A stretch of DNA of 51,359 nt from a phage. Shown here piece after piece: positions 1 to 42,752 of the stretch. The stretch is taken from the sequence record PZ452592.1; one strand, 5' to 3'. Below the pieces are notes generated by a model. The model was not told the origin of the DNA, ran no database searches, and saw nothing but the letters and a program-made list of their open reading frames with translations. The position numbers and the translations under genes were made by a program. Position 1 is the first letter of the stretch. Each line of letters starts with the position of its first letter.

Positions 1-1569
1 ATGATCATATGGGAAGATTTGACGGCGGCGCAAAAGCGAGCCATTAAAGAAATCAGTGAGCATTCATTCGAAAAGATGATCAGAATCTGGTTTCAGTTAT
101 TGCAGGGGCAAAAATTCCAGAGCAACTGGCATTTTAGCTTATTGTGCAGTGAGGTAGAGAAGATCATCAATGGAGAGTCGCAGAATGTGATTTTCAACAT
201 TACGCCAGGTAGCGGTAAGACTGAGATTTTCTCGATCCACATGTCACCCTACGCGTCATTGAAAAGTCGTAAGGTGAGAAACCTTAACCTTTCGTTTAGT
301 GATGGACTTGTCCAGCAAAACAGCAACAGGATAAAGGAGATTATCGGTTCTCCTGAGTGGCAAGAGCTATGGCCAGGAAAACTGGCAAAGGCGAGCGCAA
401 AAGATCTCATAGTTACGGATGGCGGCAAGGTTAAATTGCAAGTTAACTCACGTTCTATTGGCGGACAGGTAACAGGTTTGCGTGGCGGCTATATGGATGA
501 TGGTTTTACTGGTATGCTGGTTCTGGACGATCCAGACAAGCCTGATGATATGCTTTCTAAGGTCAAGCGTGAGGCGATCCACATGAGGTTAAAAAACACA
601 GTGCGTTCTCGTCGAATGAAAGACACCACGCCAATTGTTATGGTGCAACAGCGACTACACGTTAATGATTCCACCTGGTTCATGCTTAATGGCGGGATGG
701 GCGGTATTGAGTTTAAAGTTGTGAGCATTCCTGCGCTGGTTACGAAAGAATACCGCGAAACGCTTCCTGATTGGTTGAAGCCTGAATTTGATCGTGATGT
801 GTTGTCAAGTAAGCCAGTGATGATAGATGGAGTTGCTCATTATTCATTTTGGCCTGCAAAGGAAAGCGCGGAGGAATTGCTTGCATTGCGCAATGCAGAT
901 CCTTACACGTTCGCCAGCCAATACCAACAACAACCCATCGCGCTTGGCGGCAACGTGTTTAAAACAGAGTGGTTCCAGTATTACGGCAGCGGCGAAAAAT
1001 GCGCACTTCCTAAACCGGATCGCTTTGAATACACATTTATTACTGGAGATACAGCACAGAAGGCCGGAGAGCTTAACGACTATTCAGTTTTTTGTTATTG
1101 GGGGATGTATAAAAATCGCGTTTACTTCATTGATGGCATTCGCGGCAAGTGGGAAGCGCCAGATCTTGAATTAAATTTTATTGCCTTCGTTAATCAGTGC
1201 TGGAAGCGCAATAAGGAGTGTGGCAGCTTGCGACGTATTCACATTGAGGATAAGGCCAGCGGCACGGGTTTGATTCAGGGGGCCAAAAAGAAGATCCCGA
1301 TTGATATAAATCCCGTTCAGCGAAGCAATGACAAGGTAACGCGAGCAATGGACGCCGCGCCAGTAATGAGGGCAGGACGTGTGGCACTGCCAGAAAGTCA
1401 TCCCATGTTACCTGAGATACTGGCAGAGGTTGCAGCGTTCACTTTTGACGATTCTCATCCCCATGATGATATTGTCGATAATATAGTTGATGCTGTTAAC
1501 GTCGAAATGAACTTGGCAGATGATCCGGTAGCAAGGATGAAAAAGCTGGCTGGTCTACGCAATAAATAG
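1..1569 (+). CDS. terL: terminase large subunit
   Basis: 522-aa ORF with P-loop-like TPGSGKTE; directly follows terS (wrapping from window end) and precedes portal. Confidence 0.85.
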   Translation: MIIWEDLTAAQKRAIKEISEHSFEKMIRIWFQLLQGQKFQSNWHFSLLCSEVEKIINGESQNVIFNITPGSGKTEIFSIHMSPYASLKSRKVRNLNLSFSDGLVQQNSNRIKEIIGSPEWQELWPGKLAKASAKDLIVTDGGKVKLQVNSRSIGGQVTGLRGGYMDDGFTGMLVLDDPDKPDDMLSKVKREAIHMRLKNTVRSRRMKDTTPIVMVQQRLHVNDSTWFMLNGGMGGIEFKVVSIPALVTKEYRETLPDWLKPEFDRDVLSSKPVMIDGVAHYSFWPAKESAEELLALRNADPYTFASQYQQQPIALGGNVFKTEWFQYYGSGEKCALPKPDRFEYTFITGDTAQKAGELNDYSVFCYWGMYKNRVYFIDGIRGKWEAPDLELNFIAFVNQCWKRNKECGSLRRIHIEDKASGTGLIQGAKKKIPIDINPVQRSNDKVTRAMDAAPVMRAGRVALPESHPMLPEILAEVAAFTFDDSHPHDDIVDNIVDAVNVEMNLADDPVARMKKLAGLRNK

Positions 1570-20670: not shown

Positions 20671-20701
20671 CTTCAATACTCCTTAGTTGTTGTTGGCTGC
20701 A

Positions 20702-20743
20702 ACTATACACGATCTTGGGCATCGCGTTTAGCAAAAAGTGCTA
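20702..20743 (-). promoter_or_regulatory. 19-mer promoter cassette
   Basis: minus strand: TAGCACTTTTTGCTAAAC + 18 nt + TATAGT, then RBS and lipoprotein ATG. Confidence 0.5.
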
Positions 20744-20865
20744 TTTGTTATTTTTTGTTTTCCGGTGTTATAGAATTTAAGACGGCGTAAATTTAGCGCA
20801 AATTTTAGACAACATAAGATCAATAAACAATCAATAAAATAGATATATACATATAAAATCAATAG

Positions 20866-21032
20866 TTTATTTATTTATGTATGTATATTTGTTTTTTCTT
20901 GTTATCTGCGTTTCTTGTGGTTTTGGTTGTTTGTGGTGATTTTTCTTTCTGAGTATCTGTATATGCCATCATTCATGTGTATTTATATAATCCGGCGTAC
21001 CTGAGAGAACAGGGGAACAAGAAAAATAACAC
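20866..21032. repeat. AT-rich diverged repeat, copy A
   Basis: shares TTATTTATTTAT..., TTTTCTT, GTTGTTTGTGGTG/GTGTGGTTGTG, CCGGCG...GAACAG.AAAAATAACA blocks with 41977..42155. Confidence 0.45.
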
Positions 21033-21059
21033 ATATTAATCATTAACTTATGAGTCAAA

Positions 21060-21097
21060 TCTGTTTTCTTGCCATCTGAGAACGTTTAGAAAACAGA
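21060..21097. promoter_or_regulatory. 10-bp inverted repeat, candidate operator
   Basis: TCTGTTTTCT...AGAAAACAGA, perfect 10-bp arms 18 bp apart, 17 bp upstream of -35 of promoter at 21114. Confidence 0.35.
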
Positions 21098-21113
21098 AAA
21101 AACAAAACAGCTA

Positions 21114-21141
21114 TTGACTAAATCAACCAAATGGCTACAAT
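21114..21141 (+). promoter_or_regulatory. sigma70-type promoter
   Basis: TTGACT - 16 nt - TACAAT, about 30 nt upstream of RBS/ATG at 21172. Confidence 0.6.
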
Positions 21142-21171
21142 GCACGCATAAAGCAACAAGGAGCATTAAAG

Positions 21172-27799: not shown

Positions 27800-28276
27800 T
27801 TAGCTATTTGTGCTGTTATCACCTTTGTAGAATCGTCCGCCTGGTTCGTAGTCTGAATTTTTGACTACGCGCAACATCTCGTATTTGTCGCAACGGGTAG
27901 TAAGAGGCTTACCGTTAGAATCAAACCGCAGATCTGGACGACAAAATGATGCGCGGTATCCTTTGCATCCATTATATTTGTAGTCGTTATGCACCTTTTG
28001 TGCTCCAGCGGCTGAAATCATACCACGCTTTCGCCATTGGTTAACGACTTGCTGAGATACGCGTAGACGTCGAGCCATAGCAGGAACACCGCCATAATAC
28101 TCGATCAGAATATCCAAGCGAGATTTCAGGCTTGCTTTTACCTCATCTCGCAGGATAAGAAATCCGGTTCGGTGTTTTCGTGGCTTTTTGTCTTTACCTC
28201 GTCGCGTTCCGTTGTTACCGTTAATAGTGCGCTTGTCGATCTCACCCGTAGACACCGCAATTCGTGCATCTTTCAT
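27800..28276 (-). CDS. HTH DNA-binding protein
   Basis: 158-aa ORF; basic N-terminus and helix-turn-helix-like segment GVPAMARRLRVSQQVVNQWRKRG. Confidence 0.5.
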   Translation of the reverse strand: MKDARIAVSTGEIDKRTINGNNGTRRGKDKKPRKHRTGFLILRDEVKASLKSRLDILIEYYGGVPAMARRLRVSQQVVNQWRKRGMISAAGAQKVHNDYKYNGCKGYRASFCRPDLRFDSNGKPLTTRCDKYEMLRVVKNSDYEPGGRFYKGDNSTNS

Positions 28277-39378: not shown

Positions 39379-39591
39379 TCATTTCTTATTTTTCAGCTTA
39401 AATTTATGACCTGGAACACCAGCGCCAATATACCCATCGTTGTATTCCATTAAATAAAGGTGAAGACCATTATCTGAAATTACATGAGGATCTTCTTTGA
39501 GATTTCCCATTAGTGGATATTCTTTTCCGCGCGTAAATTTCCAAATTGAGTTATAAGTTTCTACGCATTTAAGTTTTAATTGCTTTGCCAT
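39379..39591 (-). CDS. hypothetical protein
   Basis: 70-aa ORF, start overlaps upstream stop. Confidence 0.5.
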   Translation of the reverse strand: MAKQLKLKCVETYNSIWKFTRGKEYPLMGNLKEDPHVISDNGLHLYLMEYNDGYIGAGVPGHKFKLKNKK

Positions 39592-39788
39592 TAAATGATC
39601 TCCATGTATGTTTCAAAGCCATTTAACTTGAACAGGCCGTTTTCACATTTGCGCACATTCCAAGTTAGCCCTGAGTGGTACGCCTCCATATCATCAAGGT
39701 CAATGGTGATTTCAGCACCTTTCTTAAACAAACCTTTTTCGTGAGACTTGTCGCGCTTAACAACTTTAACATCAACCTGATTTTCCAT
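39591..39788 (-). CDS. hypothetical protein
   Basis: 65-aa ORF from ATG 39788 (track start 39839 is GTG inside the promoter cassette). Confidence 0.45.
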   Translation of the reverse strand: MENQVDVKVVKRDKSHEKGLFKKGAEITIDLDDMEAYHSGLTWNVRKCENGLFKLNGFETYMEII

Positions 39789-39819
39789 CTTTAAATCCTC
39801 GCTTGTTGTCGATGGGTGT

Positions 39820-39863
39820 AATATACCATTCAGGCGCACATCGTTTTTAACAAAAAGTGCTAT
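39820..39863 (-). promoter_or_regulatory. 19-mer promoter cassette
   Basis: minus strand: TAGCACTTTTTGTTAAAAAC + 17 nt + TATATT + CATCGACAACA leader. Confidence 0.5.
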
Positions 39864-41323: not shown

Positions 41324-41595
41324 TACTTCTTGATCTCCTTACTGATAAATTTCAGCACCTGGCGCAAGAAAACTTCGTTGTTGATAGTCGCTGGCAATTC
41401 TTCTTTCACTTCTTGCGGCAGATAGATATTGCCGTGCCAGGTCAAGCAATCGTAGTTGATACGATAAGAGCAAAGCCACTCGCAATCGTTATCTGCTTCC
41501 CAAATGCAGAGTTGCAGAACATCGCCAAAATCTTCAACAGTCAGATCCAGACCGTGACGCTTAGCGAAATTGAAAGTGGTTTTGCTGATGTTCAT
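41323..41595 (-). CDS. hypothetical protein
   Basis: 90-aa ORF, first gene downstream of cassette at 41630; RBS AGGAG. Confidence 0.5.
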   Translation of the reverse strand: MNISKTTFNFAKRHGLDLTVEDFGDVLQLCIWEADNDCEWLCSYRINYDCLTWHGNIYLPQEVKEELPATINNEVFLRQVLKFISKEIKK

Positions 41596-41629
41596 TGCTA
41601 TCTCCTGAGCGGTTCGTTTTGATGTGTGT

Positions 41630-41673
41630 AATGTACCCGATCAGGTGGCCTGAGTTTTAACAAAAAGCGCTAT
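41630..41673 (-). promoter_or_regulatory. 19-mer promoter cassette
   Basis: minus strand: TAGCGCTTTTTGTTAAAAC + 18 nt + TACATT + CATCAAAACGAA leader. Confidence 0.5.
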
Positions 41674-41704
41674 TTGACGGTTAGCGCCAGGATTGTGATC
41701 GAAA

Positions 41705-41730
41705 TAATCAAAAGTAATCATTCGTAATCA
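41705..41730. repeat. iteron-like array, TAATCA x3 at 10-bp phase
   Basis: TAATCA at 41705, 41715, 41725; further AATCAC/TAATCA copies at 41731-41793. Confidence 0.55.
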
Positions 41731-41976
41731 AATCACGTCAAAATGATGATTGCCTTTGCAAATTTGATGAGGAAAGCAATCACGTTTAATCATTGGTTGC
41801 AGGGGAGATAGTGAAACATTCCCCTCTTGCCTCACTTTTCAGCCTGGCTGTCAGTGGTTGTTGTCTTTTGTTCACCACTGTTACCGATTTCAGGCGGCGT
41901 GTTTCCGCGCGGTTTTCCGGTGTAGCGAAAACGGAAAAAACAAAGAAAATCCTCTATAATACATTGAAAATAAAGA

Positions 41977-42155
41977 TTATTTATTTATATATATCTATAA
42001 TGTTTTCTTTTTGTTCTCACTGTTACAGTGCTTTTTGTTGGTTATGGTGTGGTTGTGTGTGGGTATATATGGATAGTTGCGCGCGCGGCGGATTGCATAT
42101 GTATATATACTTTTTCCGGCGGATTGCGTTAACAGCGTGAACAGAAAAATAACAG
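41977..42155. repeat. AT-rich diverged repeat, copy B
   Basis: collinear sequence blocks shared with 20866..21032. Confidence 0.45.
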
Positions 42156-42228
42156 CCGCGAAATCAATAACTTGCGCATGATTTTGTAGTTTTTCGATAT
42201 TGGTAACGTTTTGAATACAACAAAAACA

Positions 42229-42256
42229 TTGACACGCACCAAATAGCTTTTATAAT
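42229..42256 (+). promoter_or_regulatory. sigma70-type promoter (consensus hexamers)
   Basis: TTGACA - 16 nt - TATAAT, 32 nt upstream of ATG 42288. Confidence 0.65.
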
Positions 42257-42287
42257 GCGCCAACAGTCAACAACCGGAGGAAAGGAA

Positions 42288-42752
42288 ATGGAACAGAAAA
42301 CCACTAAGGACTATTGCGATTGGCTTCGCGAGCTTGGTCGCCGCCTGGCTAGTGGAGATATTGAAGAGTATAAAATGTCACTAATTGACCTGGCCGGAAT
42401 GTTAAGCGGTGACGACTGCTACAAGATCACGCGCAGTTCATCCTACAGCCGGACCATTATCAACCGCATTCCAGAAGTAAGGGCCGCAGGTCGGGTAAGC
42501 ATCAAGGTAGAGGAAACGGAAGATGATAAATTTTACGTTTTCCGCATGGTCCGCGAATCGAAAAGGAAAATCATCACACCCGAAGAATTGCCAGCCATCA
42601 AGGCAAGGGCGATCAAAAAGTTTGCCGATCGCTTGCTGGCAGCAATCCCGAATATCGTTGACCTGGAAGGGGATAAACTGGCTGGAGCTTGTGAGGGCGT
42701 AAGCCGCTACCAGGATATGATCCGCGAAATCATCAAAGAGGAAGAGCAATGA
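42288..42752 (+). CDS. hypothetical early protein
   Basis: 154-aa ORF from ATG 42288 with RBS GGAGG (track start 42255 lies inside the promoter). Confidence 0.5.
   Translation: MEQKTTKDYCDWLRELGRRLASGDIEEYKMSLIDLAGMLSGDDCYKITRSSSYSRTIINRIPEVRAAGRVSIKVEETEDDKFYVFRMVRESKRKIITPEELPAIKARAIKKFADRLLAAIPNIVDLEGDKLAGACEGVSRYQDMIREIIKEEEQ

What the first reader, a model, noticed from the sequence alone, without database searches (positions are those of the whole stretch)
41705..41793. Helically phased TAATCA iteron array
TAATCA occurs at 41705, 41715 and 41725 (exact 10-bp period, same helical face), with further AATCAC/TAATCA copies at 41731, 41777 and 41788. It lies just outside a 19-mer cassette and upstream of repeat copy B. 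Phased short repeats like this are typical of origin iterons or cooperative binding sites for a regulator.
Basis: partly seen in the sequence, partly recalled or inferred. Interest (0 to 1): 0.45.

Follow-up and report, generated by a model that had tools for sequence, protein, structure and literature searches.

The report
Phased TAATCA repeats beside phage pac cut
A cluster of short TAATCA repeats in this T1-like coliphage is real and sits 18-105 bases to one side of the spot where the phage most likely cuts its DNA to start filling heads, so it is more likely a docking site for the packaging enzyme than a replication origin.

Summary
TAATCA occurs at 41705, 41715 and 41725, exactly 10 bp apart, with related copies at 41731, 41747 (inverted), 41777/8 and 41787. 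It is the only such hexamer triple in the 51-kb genome and the densest AATCA/TGATT cluster (7 per 100 bp; reached in 1 of 500 shuffles).

The window is a complete T1-like phage (Drexlerviridae, Warwickvirus tunus type). The array lies in the 690-bp divergent intergenic region that holds the T1-type pac site. The read-end-mapped pac cut of phage Chapo falls in a conserved box. Its homologue here is GGGGAGATA|GTGAAAC, which places the cut at 41810|41811. Two independent GenBank records (XY3, PHB17) start at exactly that base.

The same pentamer (TGATTR/YAATCA) is enriched between the leftward promoter repeat and the cut in seven genomes from five genera (3-7 copies, about 0.75 expected). It is absent from the first 150 bp on the packaged side in all but T1.

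Best reading (about 0.45): the array is the non-packaged arm of the pac site, read by the P22-gp3-type small terminase. Rivals are an upstream regulator site for the leftward promoter (0.25), no function (0.15), host-factor bending (0.08) and origin iterons (0.07). Binding is inferred, not shown.

The parts
41705..41730 (+). Three exact TAATCA hexamers at 41705, 41715 and 41725 (10-bp period). Their centres lie 82-103 bp left of the predicted pac cut.
41731..41736 (+). AATCAC, a degenerate copy 5 bp out of phase with the triple.
41747..41752 (-). TGATTG, an inverted copy of the pentamer core (CAATCA on the minus strand).
41777..41792 (+). Cut-proximal pair CAATCAC-gtt-TAATCA with a 10-bp period. 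It reads TAATCAC in tunus, JK16 and XY3. Centres lie 20-31 bp left of the predicted cut. Positional counterparts: TGATTAATCA in MatMar, TAATCAgGTGATTA in Hanrivervirus, aTGATTGtgaga in T1/Chapo, TGATTAttacTGATTG in PHB17.
41802..41817 (+). Conserved G-rich box GGGGAGATA|GTGAAAC. The predicted pac cleavage is between 41810 and 41811, with packaging proceeding rightward.
   Evidence: Chapo cut 68|69 (PMC7471380) and its sequence; XY3 record ends at 41810 and starts at 41811; PHB17 record starts GTGAAAC; T1 terminal repeat 1-2800
41653..41675 (-). Copy of the genome-wide 21-nt repeat (aaATAGCACnnnTTGnTAAAA) that precedes the leftward gene starting at 41595. It is the left boundary of the array slot.
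   Evidence: TLS paper PMC11447400
50833..51359 (+). Small terminase gene (175 aa; the stop codon is completed by base 1 of the window). P22 gp3 family. Proposed reader of the array.
1..1569 (+). Large terminase gene, the presumed nuclease that makes the cut.

Best explanation
The TAATCA array is the non-encapsidated arm of this phage's pac site, comparable to SPP1 pacL or the hexamer arms of P1 pac.

Proposed mechanism:
1. Late in infection the ring-shaped small terminase (P22 gp3 family) docks on concatemeric DNA by reading (T/C)AATCA elements. Three lie at 41705/15/25 and two at 41777/87.
2. Within each group the elements are one helical turn apart, so neighbouring subunits of the ring can contact successive elements on one face of the DNA and bend or wrap about 100 bp.
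3. This positions the large terminase to cut at GGGGAGATA|GTGAAAC (41810|41811).
4. DNA to the right of the cut is pumped into the head by the headful mechanism.

Shown: the array itself, its uniqueness in the genome, the position of the cut by homology and by record termini, and the family-wide, one-sided enrichment of the pentamer next to the cut.

Inferred: that the small terminase is the binding protein, and that the DNA wraps around it.
For: 1. Identity and setting. The window is a T1-like headful phage, 98-99% identical to Warwickvirus tunus. Its TerS matches PF16677 and P22 gp3 structure 3P9A at E=1.7e-15.

2. Cut site. In Chapo the pac cut was mapped from identical read ends to 68|69 (PMC7471380). 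That position lies inside GGGGGGATTTA|GTGTTACC. The box is conserved in T1, Hanrivervirus, MatMar and the window. The XY3 record (98.7% identical here) ends ...GGGGAGATA and starts at the base equal to 41811. The PHB17 record, from another genus, starts GTGAAAC.

3. One-sided, family-wide motif. AATCA/TGATT counts between the 21-mer and the cut are window 7, T1 5, Chapo 5, herni 4, vojen 3, MatMar 3 and PHB17 3, against about 0.75 expected. The 150 bp right of the cut holds none in any genome except T1, which has 3. GATTA/TAATC is enriched in this intergenic region when four genomes are pooled: 25 observed against 6.7 expected, p=5e-8.

4. Conserved position. A copy sits 19.5-20.5 bp from the cut in window, T1, Chapo and MatMar, although the surrounding DNA does not align.

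5. Uniqueness. The cluster occurs once in the genome, as a pac site should.

6. Geometry. Neighbouring HTH motifs on small-terminase rings are about one turn of B-DNA apart, and about 100 bp is proposed to wrap around the ring (PMC4737164).

7. Linkage with TerS. All 61 records with a TerS at least 98% identical include every array-bearing phage examined, while MatMar and BabyEgg carry a different cassette together with a 65-66% identical TerS. In MatMar the neighbouring leftward genes are 92-96% identical.
Against: - No binding or cleavage data exist for this phage.
- P22 gp3 recognises a single 22-bp site inside its own gene, and its HTH-like motif is reported to be occluded. No P22-like pac sequence is present in this region.
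- The helical phase of the pentamers relative to the cut, pooled across lineages, is not significant: p=0.06-0.09, and 0.55 without the window.
- Pentamer orientation differs between lineages: TGATT in T1, Chapo and PHB17, AATCA here.
- In T1, Hanrivervirus and MatMar the slot occupied by the triple holds a TATTCC/GGAATA cluster of unknown function. That slot could therefore serve the adjacent leftward promoter rather than packaging.
- The putative TerS recognition helix does not co-vary cleanly with cassette type.
- The TerS linkage may simply reflect overall relatedness of the phages.
Confidence: 0.45

Rival explanations
1. The array is an upstream binding site for a phage or host transcription factor, either activator or repressor. 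The factor would control the leftward promoter associated with the 21-mer at 41653-41675, and perhaps time early versus late expression.
For: The triple lies 30-55 bp beyond the 21-mer, about 80-105 bp upstream of the likely start of transcription. Direct repeats one turn apart fit winged-helix regulators that bind tandem sites (general knowledge). In relatives the same slot, directly after the 21-mer, holds a different repeat cluster (TATTCC x4), like an exchangeable operator cassette. In atuna and JK16 the array travels with the leftward gene module. T1 has CGATTAACA x3 just upstream of its rightward sigma-70 promoter. A Cro/YdaS-like HTH protein is encoded at 27800-28276.
Against: None of the other 16 or more copies of the 21-mer has an AATCA cluster. 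The motif extends to 20 bp from the cut, about 110 bp from the 21-mer (about 160 bp upstream of the likely transcription start). It keeps its position relative to the cut, not the promoter, in T1, Chapo, MatMar and PHB17. No early protein beside the region has a recognisable DNA-binding domain. The Cro-like protein shows no unusual divergence between phages with different cassettes.
Confidence: 0.25
2. The array has no specific function. It would be a chance or drift product in an A+T-rich non-coding spacer.
For: The exact triple alone is only moderately unlikely, arising in 3-7.5% of shuffled genomes. Within the clade everything to the left of about 41860 is at least 94% identical, so conservation of the array carries no information. 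Cross-lineage phasing is not significant.
Against: The local pentamer density is reached in 1 of 500 shuffles. The hexamers are identical while their spacers are random. The same pentamer is enriched on the same side of the cut in lineages whose DNA cannot be aligned.
Confidence: 0.15
3. The array is a bending or host-factor site (IHF, Fis or intrinsic curvature) that shapes the pac or promoter region without a phage-specific reader.
For: P1 pac and lambda cosB use IHF (general knowledge). Predicted curvature peaks at 27-28 degrees, the 99th percentile of the genome, at 41735-41745 beside the triple. TAATCAA contains the WATCAA core of the IHF consensus.
Against: No full IHF consensus lies in the array; the nearest is at 42162. 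Predicted curvature over the triple itself is average, about 14 degrees. The wedge parameters were recalled from memory.
Confidence: 0.08
4. The repeats are origin-of-replication iterons bound by a phage initiator.
For: The region is non-coding and has A+T-rich blocks 140-300 bp to the right. The origin of T1-like phages is unknown (PMC11447400, PMC7718038). Nearby TGTTCAC(C) motifs at 41869 and 42137 resemble P4 type I iterons (from memory), and the phage primase is P4-alpha-like according to the T1 annotation.
Against: The unit is 6 bp rather than the usual 17-22 bp. There is no DnaA box. No initiator gene is adjacent; primase and helicases are 5-15 kb away. The motif tracks the pac cut across the family. 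If an origin lies here, other repeats (TGTTA, TGTTCAC) are better candidates.
Confidence: 0.07

Closest known systems
Bacteriophage P1 pac site (TGATCA/G hexamer arms bound by PacA)
   Same: Both have several copies of a short hexamer clustered next to a headful-packaging cut and present once per genome. The hexamers differ by one base (TGATTA/G here, TGATCA/G in P1). This comparison rests on my knowledge of Sternberg and Coulby 1987/1990 and was not checked with the tools.
   Different: P1 has hexamers on both sides of the cut, and they carry Dam sites whose methylation controls cleavage. Here the repeats lack GATC and lie on one side only. The TerS proteins are unrelated.
SPP1/SF6 pac site (pacL, pacC, pacR with box A/B/C direct repeats)
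   Same: Both have direct repeats in a non-encapsidated left arm about 100 bp from the cut. In SPP1 the small-terminase ring has DNA-binding modules one helical turn apart and gives regularly spaced protection (PMC4737164).
   Different: In SPP1 the site overlaps the terS gene and also has a right arm, and binding of isolated domains was largely sequence-independent. Here the site is 9 kb from terS, and no repeats lie on the packaged side.
P22 pac (22-bp site recognised by gp3)
   Same: The small terminase belongs to the same protein family (PF16677; 3P9A at E=1.7e-15), and both phages package by the headful mechanism.
   Different: P22 uses one asymmetric 22-bp site inside gene 3. No match to it exists in this region, and the cut here is intergenic.
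T1-type pac region as described for T1, TLS, SU57 and Chapo
   Same: The genomic location is the same: the divergent intergenic region between the two early gene clusters. The Chapo cut lies in the homologous box.
   Different: None of the papers I could read (TLS, SU57, Chapo) defines recognition elements. TLS was assigned AGATTT by analogy with P22, and the SU57 paper says the pac site was not identified. The pentamer lattice is not described in those papers.

Membership tests
pac site (headful packaging initiation site) | Contains or adjoins the terminase cleavage site that creates the first genome end | tested here: met
   By homology only. The Chapo cut 68|69 (PMC7471380) lies in the conserved box, and the XY3 and PHB17 records start at the homologous base. 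No read data for this phage were available.
pac site (headful packaging initiation site) | Present once per genome | tested here: met
   There is a single AATCA/TGATT cluster and a single hexamer triple in 51 kb.
pac site (headful packaging initiation site) | The phage encodes TerS and TerL of a headful type | tested here: met
   TerS matches PF16677 and the P22 gp3 homologue; TerL is at 1-1569.
pac site (headful packaging initiation site) | The repeats are bound specifically by the small terminase | not testable with these tools
   Needs EMSA or footprinting. The co-variation test was ambiguous.
pac site (headful packaging initiation site) | The sequence is necessary and sufficient for packaging initiation (pac-plasmid transduction) | not testable with these tools
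   Needs genetics.
Replication-origin iterons | Three or more direct repeats of initiator-site length (typically 17-22 bp) next to an A+T-rich unwinding element | tested here: not met
   The repeat unit is 6 bp with unrelated spacers. The nearest strongly A+T-rich block starts about 220 bp away, on the other side of the pac cut.
Replication-origin iterons | An initiator gene overlaps or adjoins the repeats; DnaA boxes are often present | tested here: not met
   The neighbouring genes are small proteins of unknown function. No DnaA box lies in the region.
Operator array of a transcription regulator | Sites overlap or adjoin the regulated promoter and recur at co-regulated promoters | tested here: inconclusive
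   The array is about 80-105 bp upstream of the leftward promoter. No other 21-mer promoter has such sites.
IHF binding site | Match to WATCAANNNNTTR | tested here: not met
   There is no match in 41690-41800; the nearest is at 42162-42174.
P22-type pac sequence | Match to the AAGATTTATCTG core | tested here: not met
   No match with two or fewer mismatches in the intergenic region.

The most novel reading that the evidence does not exclude
TGATTR/YAATCA pentamers, set one or more helical turns apart on the non-packaged side of a conserved G-rich cut box, would be the so far undefined recognition code of Drexlerviridae (T1-type) pac sites. They would be read by a P22-gp3-family small terminase 9 kb from its own gene. 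The distal part of the site would be an exchangeable cassette (TAATCA x3 here, TATTCC x4 in T1, Hanrivervirus and MatMar) that sits against the leftward promoter, so terminase binding could also switch that promoter off late in infection.
Probability: 0.35. Interest if true: 0.6.

Novelty: new member of a known kind. Interest (0 to 1): 0.45.

Why it matters
T1-like phages are common laboratory contaminants, candidates for phage therapy and generalised transducers, yet their pac recognition sequence has not been defined. The TLS pac site was assigned by analogy with P22, and the SU57 paper calls its pac site 'not identified'.

A defined cut box plus a recognition motif would allow four things: genomes could be opened at their true ends, transduction frequencies could be predicted, pac plasmids or non-transducing phages could be engineered, and one could test how a gp3-type terminase ring reads a multi-repeat site. 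For the scan itself, the result moves an 'iteron' call to a different process, DNA packaging.

Tried and rejected
- **IMG/VR scan for the phased pattern.** It returned only unrelated tandem repeats.
- **IMG/VR scan with a 15-mer promoter anchor.** Hits were mostly chance, with few relatives.
- **Rfam and tRNA scans.** Nothing relevant.
- **Sigma-70 scan.** No promoter lies inside the array.
- **Intrinsic curvature.** The triple is average, with only an adjacent 99th-percentile peak. The parameters were recalled from memory.
- **Conservation within the clade.** No power, because the whole left module is at least 94% identical.
- **TerS recognition-helix co-variation and a reverse proteome search for a protein shared by TATTCC phages but changed here.** No clear candidate. 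The small protein vojen_19 is 90% identical in MatMar and 45% here, but has no T1 homologue.
- **Pfam and PHROGs on 30 early, TerS and regulator proteins.** No DNA-binding domain apart from the Cro/YdaS-like protein at 27800-28276 and TerS.
- **P22 pac consensus and GATTWATC.** Chance level.
- **Pooled helical-phase test relative to the cut.** Not significant.
- **Fur, CpxR, ArcA and CRP resemblances.** Considered by eye only, weak, and not pursued.
- **Literature search for T1-like transcript maps.** Nothing found.
- **Roberts et al. 2004, the T1 genome paper.** Not held in the library.

Full report
**1. Observation**

The sequence at 41700-41800 reads cgaaaTAATCAaaagTAATCAttcgTAATCAAATCACgtcaaaatgaTGATTGcctttgcaaatttgatgaggaaagCAATCACgttTAATCAttgg.

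- Exact TAATCA lies at 41705, 41715, 41725 and 41787.
- AATCAC lies at 41731 and 41778.
- An inverted TGATTG lies at 41747.
- Base 41777 is C here but T in tunus, JK16 and XY3. Those phages therefore have five perfect hexamers and a second exact 10-bp pair.

Tests against chance:

- The triple is the only hexamer repeated three times at a fixed period of 7-15 bp anywhere in the window. Such a triple arises in 7.5% of dinucleotide shuffles, and in 3% at period 10-11.
- The pentamer core AATCA/TGATT reaches 7 copies per 100 bp here and at most 4 elsewhere. Only 1 of 500 shuffles reaches 7.
- The hexamers are identical while the three 4-nt spacers are unrelated. This does not look like recent slippage.

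**2. What the window is**

The window is a complete, circularly closed genome of a T1-like siphophage. It belongs to Drexlerviridae, Tempevirinae, Warwickvirus, and is 98-99% identical to phage tunus and about 45 other records.

- It starts at the large terminase gene.
- It ends in the small terminase gene, whose stop codon is completed by base 1.
- TerS belongs to the P22 gp3 family: PF16677, phrog_606, and 3P9A at E=1.7e-15.

The array lies in a 690-bp non-coding region (41596-42287) between leftward genes that start at 41595 and rightward genes that start at 42288. On its left is a copy of the genome-wide 21-nt repeat (41653-41675, reading leftward). This repeat was published for TLS and T1 as aaATAGCACnnnTTGnTAAAA, with unknown function (PMC11447400). 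Far to the right is a perfect sigma-70 consensus promoter, TTGACA-16-TATAAT at 42229-42256.

**3. The region holds the pac site**

- The T1 reference record starts inside the homologous region and annotates a terminal repeat at 1-2800.
- The SU57 paper states that the pac site of T1-like phages lies in this untranslated region but was not identified (PMC7718038).
- For the T1 relative Chapo, the pac cut was located between positions 68 and 69 from identical ends in about 20% of reads (PMC7471380).
- In the Chapo sequence that position is ...gcaaTGATTGtgagaGGGGGGATTTA | GTGTTACCcgg.
- The box is conserved:
  - T1: GGGGGGATCTA|GTGTTACC
  - Hanrivervirus: GGAGGGGATAGA|GAAAC
  - MatMar: GGCGGGGTGTATA|GAAAG
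  - this window: GGGGAGATA|GTGAAAC, at 41802-41817
- This predicts a cut between 41810 and 41811.

Two independent records support the prediction. The vB_EcoS_XY3 record is of the same species and 98.7% identical here. It begins at exactly the base that corresponds to 41811 and ends ...GGTTGCAGGGGAGATA. The PHB17 record, genus Changchunvirus, begins GTGAAACCTGG and ends ...TGATTGtgaggggaatc. By chance a record start would hit that base about once in 50,000.

Packaging runs rightward from the cut, as shown by the T1 terminal repeat. The array, 18-105 bp to the left, is therefore on the non-encapsidated side.

**4. The motif follows the cut across the family**

The table gives the distance from the cut to the centre of each AATCA/TGATT copy lying between the 21-mer and the cut.

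| Genome | Distances (bp) |
|---|---|
| window | 102.5, 92.5, 82.5, 77.5, 61.5, 30.5, 20.5 |
| Chapo | 100.5, 90.5, 70.5, 41.5, 19.5 |
| T1 | 105.5, 94.5, 70.5, 40.5, 19.5 |
| herni | 102.5, 82.5, 33.5, 26.5 |
| vojen | 102.5, 33.5, 26.5 |
| MatMar | 37.5, 25.5, 20.5 |
| PHB17 | 55.5, 24.5, 14.5 |

- About 0.75 copies are expected per 140-150 bp.
- The first 150 bp on the packaged side holds none in any genome except T1, which has three.
- Pooled over four complete genomes, GATTA/TAATC is enriched in this intergenic region: 25 observed against 6.7 expected, p=5e-8, with counts of 5, 4, 5 and 11.
- Spacings of 10, 20-21 and 30-31 bp recur: Chapo 10, 20, 29, 22; PHB17 31, 10; window 10, 10 and 10.
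- A pooled test of helical phase relative to the cut is not significant: p=0.06-0.09, and 0.55 without the window. Phasing is therefore established only locally.

**5. The slot under the triple is an exchangeable cassette**

- In MatMar and BabyEgg (same genus), in eight Hanrivervirus phages and in T1/Chapo, the DNA directly after the 21-mer carries a cluster of four (three in Chapo) TATTCC/GGAATA elements. That cluster is unique in each complete genome examined (MatMar, vojen, T1) and absent here.
- Against MatMar, the swap begins right after the 21-mer and ends near 41780-41800, while the adjacent leftward genes are 92-96% identical.
- Against atuna and JK16, identity stays at 94% or more up to about 41860 and then collapses.
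- PHB17 and SU57 have neither cassette, but both keep TGATT copies near their ends.

The universal element is therefore TGATTR/YAATCA near the cut. The phased triple is a clade-specific expansion of that element into the distal slot.

**6. Which protein binds it?**

- All 61 records with a TerS at least 98% identical to this one include every array-bearing phage examined. The next-best TerS is 80% identical or less, with MatMar and BabyEgg at 65-66%. This fits TerS-cassette linkage but may only reflect relatedness.
- The putative HTH recognition helix is not shared among the TATTCC phages.
- A reverse search found no protein conserved in MatMar, vojen and T1 but changed here.
- Pfam and PHROGs found no DNA-binding domain in the flanking early proteins. 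The only ones in the genome are TerS and a Cro/YdaS-like protein at 27800-28276, which is not unusually divergent.

Small-terminase rings present DNA-binding modules about one turn of B-DNA apart and are proposed to wrap about 100 bp (PMC4737164). That geometry matches hexamers 10 bp apart spread over about 85 bp. The same paper cautions that the HTH-like motif of P22 gp3 is occluded.

**7. Alternatives**

- Origin iterons: the unit is 6 bp, no initiator gene is nearby, and there is no DnaA box.
- IHF: no consensus site lies in the array.
- Intrinsic bend: predicted curvature is average over the triple, with a 99th-percentile peak at 41735-41745 (using parameters recalled from memory).
- P22-type pac sequence: absent.
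- Structured RNA or tRNA: none.
- Regulator of the leftward promoter: still open because of proximity. However, no other 21-mer carries such an array, and the motif keeps register with the cut rather than with the promoter.

**8. Verdict**

The array is real and probably functional. Its most likely role is the non-packaged recognition arm of a T1-type pac site, whose cut is predicted at 41810|41811 (confidence about 0.45). It is a new member of a known kind, namely pac sites with clustered short repeats as in P1 and SPP1. It is not an origin.

It offers a concrete, testable candidate for the undefined pac recognition sequence of Drexlerviridae. Interest is moderate (0.45).

Noticed in passing
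window, 17 or more sites, e.g. 30776, 31847, 43017, 43480, 48706 (+) and 35083, 37919, 39837, 40343, 41647 (-): The genome-wide 21-nt repeat AATAGCACTTTTTGTTAAAAC is always oriented with the downstream genes. It is often followed by a short hairpin and a CATAAT-like -10 element about 22 bp later, which is too far for TTGTTA to act as a normal -35. It is published for TLS and T1 with unknown function.
   Followed up: partly
window 42229-42256 (+): A perfect sigma-70 consensus promoter (TTGACA, 16 bp, TATAAT) lies in front of the first rightward gene. It is presumably the immediate-early promoter of the DNA end that enters first.
   Followed up: no
window 20680-21170: A second divergent A+T-rich intergenic region lies between the lipoprotein/cor-like genes and the recombination genes. 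It resembles 41974-42017, has ATCAATA three times (20819, 20830, 20857), holds the highest predicted curvature in the genome (20797), and carries an IHF consensus at 20857. It is a candidate origin or control region.
   Followed up: no
window 41927-42060: This block is conserved well beyond the genus, with blastn hits in Citrobacter, Salmonella and other Escherichia Drexlerviridae. It contains TCTATAAT twice and an A+T-rich run. It lies 120-250 bp inside the packaged end, and its function is unknown.
   Followed up: partly
window 41869-41876 (+), 42137-42143 (-), 42086-42096 and 42117-42127: TGTTCAC(C) occurs in inverted orientation on either side of the A+T-rich block and resembles P4 type I iterons (from memory). 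CGGCGGATTGC is repeated 31 bp apart. TGTTA/TAACA is enriched in this region in all four genomes (34 observed, 7.9 expected).
   Followed up: partly
L166 (MatMar) about 40322, L167 (vojen) about 1170, L168 (T1) about 48749: A cluster of four TATTCC/GGAATA elements, arranged as two direct plus two inverted in Hanrivervirus, is unique in each genome and sits directly after the leftward 21-mer. It occupies the slot that holds the TAATCA triple in this window.
   Followed up: partly
window 42288-42752 and about 41860 onward: There is a sharp mosaic breakpoint near 41860 relative to atuna and JK16. The first rightward gene (DUF7174) is very divergent: 68% identical in MatMar and 24-26% in vojen.
   Followed up: partly
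L168 (T1) 398-424: T1 has CGATTAACA three times in tandem (9-bp period) about 30 bp upstream of the -35 element of its rightward promoter. It also has CGATTA twice next to a second leftward 21-mer at about 120-150.
   Followed up: no
search results: About 20 records named 'Campylobacter phage' (A143, A112a, A14a and others; host C. jejuni) are T1-like coliphage genomes. They are probably contaminants or mislabelled.
   Followed up: no
window 39591-39839 (-): A small early protein matches Pfam PF25180, 'Phage antiviral trigger protein Gp54', at E=4e-38.
   Followed up: no
window 41728-41835 (-) and neighbouring small ORFs: Some relatives' records (tunus OR912983, MatMar, BabyEgg) annotate several 30-50-aa 'hypothetical proteins' inside this non-coding pac region. 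One overlaps the array and the cut box. They are not conserved and are probably over-annotation.
   Followed up: partly
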